Of a stretch of DNA of 64,000 nt, positions 5,590-49,137 are shown one piece after another. Where the stretch lies: the NCBI RefSeq assembly GCF_009914755.1, contig NC_060937.1; one strand, written 5' to 3'. The notes below the pieces were generated by a model. It did not search any database. It had not been told where the DNA came from and saw only the letters and a list, made by a program, of their open reading frames with translations. Every line of letters begins with the position of its first letter. Position 1 is the first letter of the stretch. The DNA comes from the human T2T-CHM13v2.0 reference genome, Homo sapiens. The position numbers were made by a program, and so were the translations under genes.

Positions 5590-5755
5590 TAGATGTGTGG
5601 GTATATATATACGCATATATACATGTATATATATACACACACACATACATACATGTATATATACACACACATTTATACATGTATATATACACACACATTT
5701 ATACATGTATATGTGTATATATACACATATATACCCACATATATACACATATGTA
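5590..5755. repeat. TA/CA compound low-complexity repeat (unit approximately atacatgtatatatacacacacattt)
   Basis: Seen directly; it generates the H/Y/I/T-rich spurious ORFs. Confidence 0.9.
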
Positions 5756-11414: not shown

Positions 11415-11970
11415 CTTTAATTTTGAAGACATGTATCTTCCAGAAAAGTTGCAGAAATAGTACAAAGAAATGTAATACATCTCTCCACCAGATTCCCCAA
11501 ATGTTAACATGTTAGTTCATTTACTTTATTATTCAGTGTGTATATATGGTTGTGTATACATATTTTTTGTATACTAATTGAGAGCAAGTTCCAGATATAA
11601 TGCCTGTTTACCACTACATACTTAAATGTTTATTTAAACAAGAACAATCTTCTCATAACCATACTACAATGATCAAAATCAGGAAATGAATATTGTTAAA
11701 TTTTATTATCTAACCCATGGAGCTTATGGAATTTTCCTCAATTTCCCACTAACATTCTTTATGCAACTTTTCATTTTTTTTTTTCTGATACAGGATCCAA
11801 TCCAGTTTCCAATAAGAATTGTATTTCCTGTCAACTATTCTGTTCATTTGGTCTGGAACACTTACTGAGTCTTTCTTTGCTATTCATGACCTTGGCATTT
11901 TTTAAGAAAGATAGACCATTAAATTTTTAGAAACTATCTTTGCATTTGTCTGATGTTTCTTCATCAGACA
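11415..11970 (-). mobile_element. L1MC4/5-type LINE-1 3' UTR
   Basis: agaaaagttgcagaaatagtacaaagaa…accagattccccaaatgttaacat…acaatgatcaaaatcaggaaat…caggatccaatccag…catgaccttggcattttt. Confidence 0.75.
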
Positions 11971-14109
11971 AATGATGACCCATAATCGCTTAAGTAAAAT
12001 GACCACTTTAGACAGCATTGAAACCATCACATCCTCAAAGCCATTCCAGATATTGCTACTTTTGAGGGACTTTACTGTACATTTTTACAACATTCTTGGA
12101 TAATGATTCCTCTCTTTGTCTTAACGTTCTTCCTTCTGTGTCCTCCTGGTTAATTTCCAGTTCATTTAAATTCAGCTCCAGAGCTCACCTCCCTCCCAAG
12201 TCTCACTGTCTCTGAATCTATACCTTGGGCTAAGGACTTCTCTGTGCTACTAGGGCTCCGATTGTTTCACTCATTATGAATTCATCCATCTTTATTGTTA
12301 AAATAAATATAAATGAACAACTGAGTGAAGCTTTGAGATTTCTAATCATTTTTAATACATAGAATAATTTATCATTTTGTTAACACTTTAACACACTGGG
12401 ATGACATCTGATCCTGTCCCCCTTTCATAATTATAGTCTAAGTCACCAGAATGTCACAACCTTGTCCGCCAGCATCTCTCTCATTGATCTTTTCCTCGTT
12501 ATTCAAAATTCACTACCTCAGTTCAGACCCTTCATTGTAGCACTTCTTGAATACTAAAAGGGGTTTCTGAATTTTCAGTTATTCTTGTTTCAGACAATTT
12601 TGTAAATAAGTCATTAGTCTTCCTTAGACATTTCTTTGATTAAGAATGTGAAGAGCTGAAAAGGAAAGAAGGGTGAGTTTTGCATACCAAAGAGGATAAC
12701 TAGACCAATGAACTATAATGTTAGTTTAGGTCCTGGCTCAGGTGACCTGAGATGAAGTTCAAATATTCTGATCTGGAATTGAAGTTTTTCTCTAACTTTG
12801 AGGTTATTTCACTATTTATTGACATTCAGAAAAAAAAAAAACTTATTGTTTGTGCTGTTGTTTCCCCTTTAGTCTCTCTTTTTATCCTTATATGTTGTTC
12901 TTCCTGTATAAAGTACATATACCTGTGGCCCCGTATGTGGTACCTGTAACCTGATTTTTTCCTGAAATCACTGCTGTGTCCTTTCTCACTTCTACCTTTC
13001 CACTTTCACTATCACCAGAACCTTGCTGTATTCTTCTCTCTCTCTGGTCGTACTGCGTCTGAAGTACATGTGCAGAATCAAGTTTATGCACTTCTTGTGA
13101 CGTCTCTTCTATGAACGAAGACATCTGTTACCTGAATCTCAGGTTTAAGTAACACTCTATTTGTTAGTTATTTGAATCCTATATTTACATACCATTGCAT
13201 TTATGTCTTATATTTATGCAAATTCCCATTTATTTGTGTTTTAGCATCTCAGTTTTGTGTGCTTTCTGAAGTCGATAATCATATCTTTATCATCATTATG
13301 TGAATCCACAGTAATTTTAAAACAATAATGACAACACAACAAACCCTACCTCTTCACTGCTCCTTAATTTTGAGCTAGGGACAGAAATGAATGAGATACA
13401 ATATCTGCAATTCATAAATGTGAAGGCAATTATATAAATATGTAAAACTTCATTTTATTTTATTAAATAGAATATTACATCGAGTAAAGTTATCATTTCT
13501 TGTGCCCCTACTATTATTTTTTCAACTGTCAAGATTGACGGTTGGGAAGCTGTCATCTTTATAATCATAATCTGAGGAGTGATTCATATAATTTCTGGAG
13601 TTTCAAAATCATGAAATATGTGACTCTTGCCCTTGATGTTGAAATTAACAGTAACCTCTTAGTGACCTCTTTTCTTAAACCTCTCTCCATAATCCTTGCA
13701 GTATTTCTTCTGTTCTACTTATTTCTGTTAAAGTATGAATATGTTTCTAACAAGGTTATTTATTACACTAATCAGGTCTACTCTGTACCTCTTAGAGTTA
13801 TTCTTCAGTCATTAAATTTTCTTTCCTAAGAGCAAGTAGTTAATAAAACAATCAGAATCTATTTAAGCTTTTGTTTTAATTATAAGAAAATAGCCTCTAA
13901 TTATGCTGTTAAAGGTTAATAAACATCTTCTTCAAAGTGTCAAGAAGTAAAAATTATGAAAGTAAACAGACATTTCTTGACAAGAATATATCCCCTCCAG
14001 AGGTGTACTAAAGGAAAATGCATGGGAAATCTAAGATAAATAGACCAATATCTTCAAGCTGCATTATATGAGTTAGAAATTAATTCTGAGATAGACATAT
14101 TCCCTTACT

Positions 14110-18182: not shown

Positions 18183-18880
<698 letters not shown>

Positions 18881-19375
18881 AGTGTATTCAATACTACACA
18901 AATTGTATAATGTGATTTTTCAACCTCTGAAATATCATGTGTTGGGTTATGATTTAGTGTACAACAGTACATCTTCCCCAAAATAGCAGAGCAGTTTAAT
19001 CAGATTTTTACATATTTCAAAAAGGTAGTATCTGTTCTTTAGTCATTTTTGATGGCCAGAGCCTAGCTTCTTGAAAAAAAAATGTTTTGTTAGGTTTGTT
19101 AGGTGTTTCCTTGAAGAACATTCGTTCACTGAAATTTAGGGCTTACTATGCATTGTAACCCTTTTAGCACAGAAGTTACAGCAGCAAACAATGCAAACAA
19201 ACAAGCACAGTCCATGTTGAATTCTTAAATGTGACTCTTGTAGAAGCAATCTTGATGGGGTGGTAATGCTAATTTCACATAGCCCCTATCACATTTGGGG
19301 AAAAGATGGAAACTTTGGAAAGGGGATGGGGTGACGGTTTGCATACCGTGGGGAAGGCAGAACCTGCTCTTTGCT

Positions 19376-19506
19376 GACAGAGCCAGGAGCAGTCCAGCAG
19401 TGTTGTTAGTAGGTTTGGCCTACTAACAACACTGCTACCAGCAGAAGGGACACTGGAAGCCCCTTTTGTGCTGGCACCAGACCACTGGACTGCTCCTGGC
19501 TCTGTC
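19376..19506. other. Nested inverted-repeat (T/Y-shaped) element of unknown origin
   Basis: Perfect 22-bp IR 19376-19397 / 19485-19506; perfect 18-bp IR 19396-19413 / 19419-19436; imperfect IR 19438-19449 / 19461-19474. Confidence 0.9.
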
Positions 19507-20561
19507 TCTGCTGCTCTGGAAAACTGATAATGGTCATTTCTCTTTGGATTATTTTGGTTTCTCAGAAGCACAGCCTTTTTGAGATGGAAGAAAACACATT
19601 TTGTGGAAAGGAACACTCAGACCCAGAAAGTTTCGGTGGTTTACCTAAAGCACAAAATCCATGGGTCCCAAATCCCATCTCCATATGCATTCTCCATGCC
19701 ACACTGTTTTAAAAATACAAGTGAAAAAGCAAGCACGGACACCCATGCAGCTGAGGAACCGAAAAGAGGCTCTACATCGACTCTAATTTTTCTTTATTCT
19801 GAAAATAATATATTTCAAGTTTTATCAAAAATGCCTACTCTCAGTACCGTGTCTGTGCACTAATGTTGTGCGTTGGTATTCTTGTGGGATGTGTCACTGT
19901 TGTGCTGATTGTTCATACTGGAAAGGTGTCGGCATTCAGAGAGACTGAGCACAGGAAACACAACCCAACCAACCCAAGCTGCGTCCCTGTTGTCTACACG
20001 CAGGTCACTGGCCTAATGATTCTGAGATTTTTCCCTGAGAATCTTCCAAGAAAAAAAAAAAAATTCAAATGTTGATGAAGATGAGTTCAGAAGGGAGAAA
20101 TTGCTCCAAAACATCACAGAAAATTAGTGGTAAATCTGTGAATATTCCTTGAGTCTCTTTTTTTTTAGTGTTTGTGTTACCAATTATTTTATTTGACATA
20201 TTTTCATTACTTCTAATTGTACATTATTATTTATTCATTTTTATCAATCTTTTTTAGAAGTAAGCTCTTCTTTGTTCTTTTCAATAGCACAAAAATTATC
20301 ATTGAAATTGGGCCAGTCTGACAGCTATATGTATAGTATAGTATTCCAATTTGCTAAAATTTATCCCCAAATATGGTATTCCACATTTCTTGAAAGAAAA
20401 TACTAATGATCCCACAACAAATAAAATACTAAGAGCAACCGTGGTTGCCTATGCTTGTTTTCACAGAATATAACTAAATCACTCCTTACTCTCACCTTTG
20501 GTTTAAGGTATGGCTTGAACTGGAATTTGGTTTGACGAGGTAGAGGTGGTGGAAGACATCC

Positions 20562-39410: not shown

Positions 39411-40999
39411 CCCCCAAATTATCAAAGTCAGTAGAAAACCCCAAAACTAGGTAATCTGTGATCCAGGAAAGGTGTGTTCATAATTCTTTTGAAAAGCGAT
39501 CTACATATTAACCCTCACTGAATTTATTAGCTCTGTGATTTAAAGAATGATCCTAAGTGTTCTTGCCTCTACTGGGAAGATCTCCTTATTAGCTGATTTG
39601 GAAGATCTATTTTTTGTTACATTTTCTCTCCCTCAAGTTTTCTGTGACCTGTATGTTGTAAAGACCACCCCGTTCTTGAAACTCTCCCACCCAAGCCCAT
39701 AAGCTTCTTAAATGCTGCTTCATCCCGGATCTCTTCAAGTTCCATTTTCACCTCCCTGTGTACGTTCTGGTTCTTCCTCTTCCTTCATCGCTTGAGTGGG
39801 CTCCTATCCTTGCCCACCTTCTTAGGCTACCCTTTCATTGGTAGCCTCCATCCTTTCATCATCAAGTAGCAGTTCTAATTTTTCCCTTTAGATGCAAATT
39901 TCCAGCTTAAAACCCTTTGAGATTCCATTCATCTAAAAGTATCTCCTGTGGGGTTTCACCAAGACCTGAAATTCTACAGGTCTAAAATTGATTGGTGCTA
40001 TCTCCTCTTCCCAATTCTTGCCTCCTCGTTTTACTCATTGTGTATCCAATCTCCAGTCACTGGAACTTAACATTTGAATCTCTGATAGTCTCCACTTATT
40101 TGCTGTTGTCATTCCATTTATTGACATGTTCTTCCACCTTTTCTTTACAAATAAGTCCTAAATCCATCAACTTTTATTTTTTTCTGGTTGTTTCTACCCT
40201 AGCACAGTACCCTGTTCTCCCTCATGGACAATTTTTCTAAGTGGTTTGACATTAGTCTTGCCGTGTTGAAATAAATTTACTCATTTTGGACTAGTCCTTT
40301 TGATGTGTGTCAAATTTCAATTCATTCAACATTCTAATAGAGTAATTTTTCATCCTTTCTTGTGATGTTTTCATTGGCCTAGGATGCTTTCCTCTCTTAT
40401 ACTTACTTGAATGGAACAAATGTTTTGAATTCTGTCTCAAAACTTCTTTTATATCCTCTACCACAACAACCTCAGCCCAGGCAATCATTCTGGCATTTAA
40501 TTCATACTCATTATATATTGCCTTGATGCTTTCCATAAATGAAAATCTTATATATTACCTATCAACTAGATTGTTGTATCATTGTGATATGAATCTTATT
40601 TATTTTTACCTGTGTTCCATAGTACATATTAAAATGAGTTATCTTTAATATAAAAATAATAAATACTGCTAATCTTCTAAGTAGCATCTGAATTTTGGAA
40701 GACGGAACCACTCGTATGAATATGTAGAACTATACTGTGTGTTGAAAATCACAGATTCTTAACTGATTTGTATTTCATTTCTTAAGTATGCTGCTATGTT
40801 TGTACCCTTTAGAGCCCCAAGCCAAAGATTATTCTTATTGTGGATTTTGCACTTCTCCCATCTTCCATGTATAAGCCATCAGCAAGTCCATTTATTTCTA
40901 CCATATTCCTTCTCAATTACTGTCACTCTGCTCCAAGCCATCATTGTACTTTGCCTGAATTACTACAAACCCTAAGTTTTCTCCATGCTTTCATGCTAA

Positions 41000-49106: not shown

Positions 49107-49137
49107 TCTTGAACATCAGTGTTTCTGATGTTCAAGA
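49107..49137. repeat. Perfect 13-bp inverted repeat with 5-nt loop
   Basis: TCTTGAACATCAG-tgttt-CTGATGTTCAAGA. Confidence 0.95.

What the first reader, a model, noticed from the sequence alone, without database searches (positions are those of the whole stretch)
19376..19506. 131-bp T/Y-shaped nested palindrome: perfect 22-bp terminal IR enclosing two hairpins
Seen: GACAGAGCCAGGAGCAGTCCAG (19376-19397) is the exact reverse complement of 19485-19506. Inside it, AGCAGTGTTGTTAGTAGG-tttgg-CCTACTAACAACACTGCT (19396-19436) is a perfect 18-bp stem, overlapping the outer arm by 2 nt. CCAGCA-GAAGGG…CCCTTT-TG-TGCTGG (19438-19474) is a second, imperfect stem. Either strand can fold into a three-way junction. 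Two perfect, high-complexity IRs this long and nested are far beyond chance in 64 kb, and I match no repeat family to them. The perfection contrasts with the heavy decay of the DNA transposons in this window (MER5A, MER47). Inference, alternatives: (a) an unannotated MITE or foldback element; (b) a structured ncRNA or miRNA-like precursor kept by selection; (c) iterative replication template switching or intrastrand conversion; (d) architecture, not sequence, reminiscent of parvoviral T-shaped terminal hairpins.
Basis: partly seen in the sequence, partly recalled or inferred. Interest (0 to 1): 0.8.

Follow-up and report, generated by a model that had tools for sequence, protein, structure and literature searches.

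The report
Split-arm perfect hairpin, template-switch scar
A real, single-copy 131-base palindrome in a human NALF1 intron is best read as one perfect 38-base-pair hairpin whose far arm is split by 48 bases, most likely a by-product of DNA copying errors and not a gene or a mobile element.

Summary
19376-19397 and 19485-19506 are perfectly complementary (22 bp). 19396-19413 and 19419-19436 form a perfect 18-bp stem with a 5-nt loop. These are the two longest perfect inverted repeats in the window, and the 151-nt stretch folds about 9-11 sd better than shuffles. The third stem (19438-19474) is no better than chance.

New reading: the two left arms are one contiguous 38-mer (19376-19413). Its exact reverse complement lies on the right in two pieces sharing a 2-nt CT overlap, separated by 48 unique bases.

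The element, its 48-nt insert and 1.2 kb around it are single copy in the 3.1-Gb assembly. No Rfam family reaches its threshold; mir-34 scores 30.4 bits against a cut-off of 53.4, and the real mir-34 loci score 63-70. No viral or prokaryotic match is meaningful.

A random 200-kb genome sample held another single-copy perfect 23-bp inverted repeat, so the class is common. Published work counts tens of thousands of template-switch stems on the primate-to-human lineage.

Best explanation (about 0.7): one compound or two successive template-switch (snap-back) copying events, probably neutral. Origin and age could not be tested because no primate genomes were available. New member of a known kind; interest is low to moderate.

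The parts
19376..19413 (.). Contiguous 38-nt 5' arm. It is the outer left arm 19376-19397 plus the inner 5' arm 19396-19413, which overlap by 2 nt.
   Evidence: its exact reverse complement equals 19419-19436 joined to 19485-19506 with a 2-nt CT overlap. Searches give the coordinates.
19414..19418 (.). 5-nt apical loop (TTTGG)
19419..19436 (.). Inner 3' arm, 18 nt, perfectly complementary to 19396-19413
   Evidence: (I2, 100%)
19437..19484 (.). 48-nt unique segment that splits the 3' arm. It holds the weak imperfect stem 19438-19474 and part of a CCAG/CTGG mini-hairpin.
   Evidence: no other copy in the window; no other copy in the genome; the stem is not better than shuffles (z -1.59).
19485..19506 (.). 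Outer 3' arm, 22 nt, perfectly complementary to 19376-19397
   Evidence: (I1)
19370..19375 (.). Left copy (TTTGCT) of an imperfect 6-bp flanking direct repeat
   Evidence: 5 of 6 identical to 19507-19512. Only 0.8% of window positions do as well at this spacing.
19507..19512 (.). Right copy (TCTGCT) of the imperfect 6-bp flanking direct repeat

Best explanation
The element is a lineage-specific scar of templated mis-copying of DNA. A growing strand briefly used nearby sequence of the opposite sense as its template, either by a template switch at a replication fork or by snap-back synthesis during break repair, and then returned.

The product is a 38-nt stretch (19376-19413) that is the exact reverse complement of two nearby stretches (19419-19436 and 19485-19506). 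These two meet at a 2-nt CT microhomology and are separated by 48 nt of native sequence.

Either one compound event with an extra jump wrote the 38-mer in one go, or two successive switches wrote the two 3' pieces, the second starting at the base of the hairpin made by the first. The order and number of events are inferred, not shown.

The result is probably neutral. It lies deep in a NALF1 intron, so it would be transcribed on the minus strand as a roughly 40-bp interrupted double-stranded RNA. As DNA, the 18-bp/5-nt-loop core could extrude as a cruciform. Nothing found here indicates a dedicated function.
For: Shown:
- Perfect complementarity over 38 bp, with sharp ends on both sides and no complementarity in the flanks.
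- The two 5' arms are contiguous, while the 3' arms are split and share a CT overlap.
- The element (151-nt query), the 48-nt insert (62-nt query) and 1.2 kb around it hit only themselves in the 3.1-Gb assembly.
- Without the 5' arm, the 3' half is unstructured: z -0.44, and 60 of 200 shuffles fold as well. This matches published cases where stems arise from unstructured sequence (PMC10710096, section 6 read).
- A random 200-kb sample of the same genome held 1 other single-copy, high-complexity, perfect 23-bp inverted repeat, so such objects are common.

From papers:
- 53,666 putative template-switch mutations in genic regions on the primate-to-human lineage; 31,007 made a new stem and 6,054 were miRNA-sized (PMC10710096, section 9).
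- Of 79 template-switch miRNA loci, the Fig. [quoted passage not shown]
- Hominid events have a median copied length of 12 nt and a maximum of 128 nt (PMC7954356, passages). Copies of 18, 22 or 38 nt are within that range.
Against: - No outgroup or second human haplotype could be examined, so the defining evidence (an ancestral state lacking the copy) is missing.
- The locus is not among the 4,017 hominid events listed in PMC7954356 S2 Data. The nearest chr13 rows are about 21 kb and 77 kb away. The GRCh38 position rests on recalled coordinates of MIR1267 and NALF1.
- There is no clear microhomology at the other switch points (read).
- The idea that the 48 nt was skipped because it folds is not supported thermodynamically.
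- An imperfect 6-bp flanking direct repeat, seen at 0.8-1.2% of window positions, would also fit an insertion.
- Perfect arms could equally reflect selection or repeated homogenisation.
Confidence: 0.7

Rival explanations
1. It is an unannotated small-RNA or double-stranded-RNA gene, such as a young miRNA-like or endo-siRNA hairpin, expressed from the NALF1 intron. One arm resembles miR-34/449.
For: - Very stable RNA folds on both strands.
- It lies in an intron of a transcribed gene (hub annotation).
- The inner hairpin is the second-best match of an Rfam search of 2 kb around it, to mir-34: 30.4 bits, E 3.4e-4 for that search, sharing GCAGUGU and GUUAG with the consensus.
- Template-switch hairpins are a documented source of new miRNAs (PMC10710096).
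Against: - 30.4 bits is far below the cut-off of 53.4. The real mir-34 loci in this genome score 63.4-69.8, and the antisense of one scores 29.6.
- Other miRNA models give the same perfect hairpin 17-24 bits from structure alone.
- Nothing in the whole window reaches a gathering score.
- An 18-bp stem with a 5-nt loop, or a 38-bp stem with a 48-nt one-sided branch, does not fit the ~35-bp stem and >=10-nt loop described for pri-miRNAs (PMC10710096 introduction).
- Only 57 of 6,054 suitable template-switch hairpins are annotated miRNAs.
- No paper holds the arm sequences (DNA spelling only).
Confidence: 0.06
2. It is a MITE, a foldback transposon, or another inserted palindromic DNA, with 22-bp terminal inverted repeats and a 6-bp target-site duplication.
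For: - Perfect terminal inverted repeats.
- An imperfect flanking direct repeat TTTGCT/TCTGCT, 5 of 6 identical. This is seen at 0.8% of window positions for k=6, and at 1.2% for any k of 6-10 with <=1 mismatch.
Against: - Single copy. The 151-nt and 1,201-nt queries hit only themselves.
- At <=3 mismatches the outer arm has 55 genome matches against 8 for the reversed control, but only its own 2 copies are exact. The 12 near-match loci examined share at most 25 nt, and none has an inverted partner.
- The flanks are rich in GCTCT/CTGCT motifs, which inflates short direct matches.
- One mismatch in 12 duplication sites against none in 76 arm sites is awkward for a single insertion date (inference).
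- The termini do not match any terminal-repeat or duplication rule that I recall.
Confidence: 0.06
3. It is a structure kept by selection at the DNA or RNA level, for example a cruciform or protein-binding palindrome, or an RNA three-way junction acting in NALF1 pre-mRNA processing.
For: - 38 of 38 pairs are intact.
- Fold z-scores are extreme.
- The window lies in a large neuronal gene with RefSeq enhancers elsewhere in it (hub annotation).
Against: - Perfection is expected for a young neutral copy.
- One branch of the junction is at chance level.
- No known RNA family matches.
- No RefSeq functional element is listed at this place (hub annotation).
- Comparable single-copy perfect inverted repeats turn up in a random 200-kb sample.
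Confidence: 0.07
4. It is an assembly artefact, or a variant private to the CHM13 cell line or haplotype.
For: - Only one assembly could be examined.
- Template-switch clusters do segregate in humans: 3,705 such clusters are cited in PMC10710096, section 9.
Against: - The region is unique, non-repetitive sequence with no N.
- From my own knowledge, palindromic read artefacts are usually read-length rather than 131 bp.
Confidence: 0.03
5. It is a relic of a parvovirus-like terminal hairpin.
For: Only the T/Y shape of the predicted fold.
Against: - The outer arm has 0 exact matches in viral contigs. The inner arm has 1 match, on one strand only and without a partner arm. I judge that to be at chance level, but I did not compute an expectation.
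- No viral gene remnants are evident, and the surrounding 1.2 kb is unique human sequence.
- One 'ear' is not significant.
Confidence: 0.01

Closest known systems
Short-range template-switch mutations (four-point model of Loytynoja & Goldman; hairpins described in PMC10710096, PMC7954356 and PMC8794818)
   Same: An inverted copy of adjacent sequence that is perfect with sharp boundaries. It is single-locus and intronic, and it creates a stable stem out of unstructured sequence. Copy lengths are within the published range.
   Different: The copy is templated from two stretches 48 nt apart, or written in two abutting instalments. That needs more than the standard two jumps. The ancestral state was not observed here.
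Polymerase-theta / SD-MMEJ snap-back templated insertions at repaired breaks (PMC4912351, PMC5068794, PMC5728401; search listing and start of abstracts only)
   Same: Inverted templated synthesis from nearby sequence. Repeated rounds of synthesis can give compound products. Microhomologies occur at junctions, here the CT overlap and the 5-of-6 flanking repeat.
   Different: As I recall, typical templated insertions are shorter. No break or deletion scar can be identified without an outgroup.
mir-34 family (Rfam RF00456)
   Same: A hairpin whose arm shares GCAGUGU..GUUAG..GG with the family consensus.
   Different: It scores 30.4 bits against a cut-off of 53.4, while real members score 63-70. 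The family consensus reads GGCAGUG where this hairpin reads AGCAGUG. The loop has 5 nt and the stem is perfect.
Palindromic MITEs of the human genome (for example MADE1-type elements that give mir-548 hairpins; recalled, not tested)
   Same: A short element with perfect-looking terminal inverted repeats that folds as a hairpin.
   Different: Such MITEs are present in many dispersed copies with defined target duplications. This element is single copy.
Parvoviral (AAV-type) T-shaped terminal hairpin (architecture recalled)
   Same: An outer stem enclosing two small hairpins, of similar total length.
   Different: No sequence relation. One inner hairpin is at chance level. There is no viral context.

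Membership tests
Template-switch-generated inverted repeat | A stretch that is the exact reverse complement of sequence within short range (tens of bases) | tested here: met
   the 38-nt stretch 19376-19413 is the reverse complement of 19419-19436 plus 19485-19506.
Template-switch-generated inverted repeat | Sharp boundaries between perfect identity and unrelated sequence | tested here: met
   there is no pairing at 19375/19507 or at 19395/19437. Past the 22-bp outer arm only 5 of 9 positions match.
Template-switch-generated inverted repeat | The ancestral or outgroup sequence lacks the copy, so it appears as a mutation cluster in an alignment | not testable with these tools
   No primate or other human genomes are held. 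The locus is not in the hominid event list of PMC7954356 (its position was estimated from recalled coordinates).
Template-switch-generated inverted repeat | A local, single-locus event with no dispersed family | tested here: met
   Searches returned self-hits only.
MITE / foldback transposon | Multiple dispersed, related copies in the genome | tested here: not met
   there are no copies, and near-matches share at most 25 nt. Very old, diverged copies below BLAST sensitivity cannot be excluded.
MITE / foldback transposon | A target-site duplication flanking the terminal inverted repeats | tested here: inconclusive
   an imperfect 6-bp repeat, 5 of 6 identical, empirical frequency 0.8-1.2%, in a motif-rich context.
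mir-34 (RF00456) or any Rfam family | A score at or above the curated gathering threshold | tested here: not met
   30.4 against 53.4; 0 matches at gathering in the 64 kb; real loci score 63.4-69.8.
Canonical animal miRNA precursor | A ~35-bp stem with an unstructured apical loop of >=10 nt (as stated in PMC10710096) | tested here: not met
   an 18-bp stem with a 5-nt loop, or a 38-bp stem with a 48-nt one-sided branch.
Canonical animal miRNA precursor | ~22-nt products with defined ends in small-RNA data | not testable with these tools
   No expression data are held.
Parvoviral terminal hairpin | Sequence relation to viral termini, or adjacent viral genes | tested here: not met
   Only exact-word scans of viral contigs were run.

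The most novel reading that the evidence does not exclude
The split-arm hairpin is a newly born functional RNA element. It would be transcribed within NALF1 pre-mRNA in neurons. Its ~40-bp perfect duplex would be processed into small RNAs, with an arm one base off the miR-34/449 seed, or would act as an ADAR or dsRNA-binding-protein site. It would be kept perfect by selection or by recurrent template switching.
Probability: 0.05. Interest if true: 0.55.

Novelty: new member of a known kind. Interest (0 to 1): 0.25.

Why it matters
If the reading is right, this locus is a clean textbook example of a compound template-switch product. A 38-bp perfect stem was created at a stroke from unstructured intronic sequence, and one arm was templated from two places. 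Current two-jump detection algorithms are said to miss such cases (PMC10710096), so it could serve as a test case for multi-switch models. It is also raw material of the kind from which new miRNAs arise. It does not open a new kind of biology, because thousands of comparable stems exist.

Tried and rejected
1. Dispersed copies. Whole-genome searches with 151-, 62- and 1,201-nt queries and with both arms as mismatch-tolerant patterns found only self-matches and short chance-like matches. The 24-of-25 match on C10 (L005) has no inverted partner and no wider similarity.

2. Known RNA families. Nothing reached a threshold. The mir-34 likeness was set aside after comparison with the real loci.

3. 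Viral or prokaryotic relatives. Exact-word scans gave 0, 1 (one arm only, which I judge to be chance) and 0 hits.

4. Origin of the 48-nt insert. No direct or inverted source was found in the window or the genome.

5. 'Hairpin bypass' of the 48 nt. This is not supported, because that segment and the whole 3' half fold no better than shuffles.

6. Published event lists.
- The arm sequences, in DNA spelling, are in 0 papers. The U-spelled forms were not searched.
- Three supplement files of PMC10710096 have no 'chr13', 'mir-1267' or 'FAM155A'. One further file was too large to read.
- PMC7954356 S2 Data has no row at the estimated position.
- For PMC9435742, only 11 of 22 supplement files were searched. 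They hold examples, not the full list.

7. Background rate. Only 200 kb of the planned 1 Mb could be fetched. The rate of 1 per 200 kb therefore rests on a single locus.

8. Earlier scan notes were not open.

Full report
**1. The observation**

- The repeat finder reports arms 19376-19406 / 19476-19506, 31 nt at 87%. The outer 22 nt are perfect.
- It also reports arms 19396-19413 / 19419-19436, 18 nt at 100%, 5 nt apart.
- Each arm sequence occurs in the 64-kb window only as its own two copies, even at up to 3 mismatches. In 0 of 100 dinucleotide shuffles were there two or more matches.
- My scan of the window for perfect inverted repeats (arm >=12, spacer <=150) found 44. These two are the longest. 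All others above 13 bp lie in (CT)n, (TA)n or TA/TG-rich tracts.
- The 151-nt stretch folds far better than its shuffles. As DNA it gives -54.5 against -25.0 +/- 3.1 kcal/mol, z -9.67. As + strand RNA z is -9.15, and as - strand RNA z is -11.2. In each case 0 of 200 shuffles were as good.

The third, imperfect stem (19438-19474) exists but is not better than chance: -8.8 against -5.9 +/- 1.8 kcal/mol, z -1.59, 14 of 200 shuffles as good. The 'three-way junction' is therefore two significant helices plus one incidental one. The DNA minimum-energy fold actually shows a four-way variant.

**2. A simpler anatomy**

The outer left arm and the inner 5' arm overlap by 2 nt, so they form one contiguous 38-mer (19376-19413). 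One search shows that its exact reverse complement equals 19419-19436 joined to 19485-19506 through a shared CT.

The element is thus a perfect 38-bp hairpin with a 5-nt loop, whose 3' arm is interrupted by 48 nt (19437-19484). Both ends of the 38-mer are sharp. There is no pairing outside 19376/19506, and past the 22-bp arm only 5 of 9 positions match.

Without the 5' arm, the 3' half (19414-19520) is unstructured: z -0.44, 60 of 200 shuffles as good.

**3. Copy number and relatives**
- The own-genome search (3.12 Gb, 24 contigs) returned only self-matches for the 151-nt element (4 matches, all at the locus), for 1,201 nt around it (2 matches, both self) and for a 62-nt query covering the 48-nt insert (1 match, self).
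- Pattern searches gave 55 genome matches to the outer arm at <=3 mismatches, against 8 for the reversed control. They gave 133 to the inner arm at <=2 mismatches, against 35 for the control. Only the element's own arms are exact.
- In the 12 near-match loci examined (L005-L010, L013-L018), shared sequence is at most 25 nt, and none has an inverted partner.
- The excess over the reversed control probably reflects the CAG/CTG-rich, CpG-poor composition (inference).
- The tool warns that it scores only the best candidates, so very diverged old copies cannot be excluded.
- Exact scans of viral contigs gave 0 hits for the outer arm and 1 for the inner arm. That hit is on one strand only, without a partner arm, and I judge it to be chance. 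A scan of prokaryotic genomes gave 0 hits for the outer arm.

**4. Known RNA families**

In 2 kb around the element there were 14 matches at E <= 10, and none reached a gathering score. The best for the hairpin is mir-34, at 30.4 bits against a cut-off of 53.4. It matches on both strands, as expected for a palindrome. The arm shares GCAGUGU..GUUAG..GG with the consensus.

Other miRNA models give the same hairpin 17-24 bits from structure alone. In this genome the real mir-34 loci score 69.8, 68.1 and 63.4 bits, a C5 locus scores 38.7, and the antisense of the C1 locus scores 29.6 (only 63 of 323,091 first-look candidates were scored). I treat the likeness as coincidental.

The whole window has 0 matches at gathering.

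**5. How common such objects are**

That sample held 225 perfect inverted repeats with arms >=12. Four of them were high-complexity, with arms of 12, 12, 15 and 23 bp. The 23-bp one (L023:3473-3558, spacer 40) is also single copy. One locus in 200 kb is a very rough rate, but it shows that a perfect, unique, high-complexity inverted repeat of about 20 bp is not exceptional in this genome.

The literature agrees.
- Monttinen et al. 2023 (PMC10710096; outline and sections 6, 9 and 15 read) infer 53,666 template-switch mutations in genic regions between the primate ancestor and human. Of these, 31,007 created a new stem and 6,054 were miRNA-sized. Only 57 of the 6,054 are annotated as miRNAs.
- Of their 79 template-switch miRNA loci, the Fig. 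[quoted passage not shown] They also note multi-switch cases that their algorithm does not capture.
- Walker et al. 2021 (PMC7954356; passages and S2 Data searched) report 4,017 hominid events, with a median copied length of 12 nt and a maximum of 128 nt.

**6. Mechanism**

What is shown is an exact, sharply bounded, local inverted copy at a unique locus, which turns unstructured sequence into a very stable stem. What I infer is that it arose by templated mis-copying. This could be a replication template switch. From sequence alone it is indistinguishable from snap-back synthesis during polymerase-theta or SD-MMEJ repair (PMC4912351, PMC5068794, PMC5728401; listing and start of abstracts only).

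The contiguity of the 5' arms needs explaining, because two independent events would abut by chance only rarely. I see three routes.
- (i) One compound event wrote the 38-mer from two template stretches, jumping 48 nt at the CT microhomology.
- (ii) Two switches took place, the second priming on AG/CT at the base of the hairpin made by the first, where stacking on the existing helix would favour it.
- (iii) A simple 81-nt palindrome formed and was later interrupted by a 48-nt insertion.

Route (iii) is disfavoured, because the 48 nt has no source elsewhere. For route (i), a fold-driven bypass is not supported, so the jump would simply be a third switch.

*Age (inference).* No substitution has hit 76 arm sites. 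With neutral decay, exp(-76d) = 0.05 gives d of about 0.04. On recalled primate divergences this is roughly the age of catarrhines at most, and probably much younger. The locus is absent from the hominid event list. The nearest chr13 rows are at 107,578,585 and 107,634,630, against an estimated position of about 107.557 Mb. This is weakly compatible with an origin before the gorilla split, or with a miss by that method. The estimate uses recalled GRCh38 coordinates of MIR1267 and NALF1, which agree with each other to within about 400 bp.

**7. Points against, and rivals**

An imperfect 6-bp direct repeat (TTTGCT/TCTGCT) flanks the element. Only 0.8% of window positions do as well at k=6, and 1.2% for any k of 6-10 with <=1 mismatch. 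This is the one feature that favours an insertion, such as a MITE or captured foldback DNA. However, the flanks are rich in GCTCT/CTGCT motifs and the element is single copy. Microhomology at a repair or return junction would give the same picture.

A functional small-RNA or dsRNA element cannot be excluded without expression and comparative data. Its prior is low (57 of 6,054), and the geometry is not canonical. Assembly error or a private variant could not be tested.

**8. Verdict**

This is a real and striking structure that is better described as a split-arm 38-bp perfect hairpin. It is most likely a neutral template-switch scar of primate age in a NALF1 intron, and so a new member of a known and abundant kind. 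It is of some use as an example of a multi-jump event.

Noticed in passing
L023:3473-3558 (G000:C4:105492706-105492791): A random genome sample held another single-copy perfect inverted repeat: 23-bp arms with a 40-nt spacer that contains a ~20-nt tandem direct repeat. It looks like a second compound template-switch product.
   Followed up: partly
L005:1501-1525 (G000:C10:11897569-11897593): A 24-of-25 match to the outer arm plus the next 3 nt, with no inverted partner and no wider similarity. It is unexpectedly close for a random 25-mer, and is probably a CAG-rich motif coincidence.
   Followed up: partly
window 18500-18691: An Alu-like fragment: a partial Metazoa_SRP match on the minus strand (36.9 bits, below the cut-off of 70), within a stretch masked as repeat (hub table).
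   Followed up: no
window 18183-18296 and 5596-5752: (CT)n/(TA)n and TA/TG-rich microsatellite tracts. They account for nearly all other perfect inverted repeats of >=13 bp in the window.
   Followed up: no
window 11943-11974 and 49107-49137: Two high-complexity perfect 13-bp hairpins with 6- and 5-nt loops. They may be small template-switch products or chance.
   Followed up: no
window about 40500-40900 (estimated): A published hominid template-switch event (PMC7954356 S2 Data, name 818, chr13:107578585-107578591 GRCh38, human descendant, partially significant) should fall here by recalled coordinate offsets. Several weak inverted repeats are present, but the event was not pinned down.
   Followed up: partly
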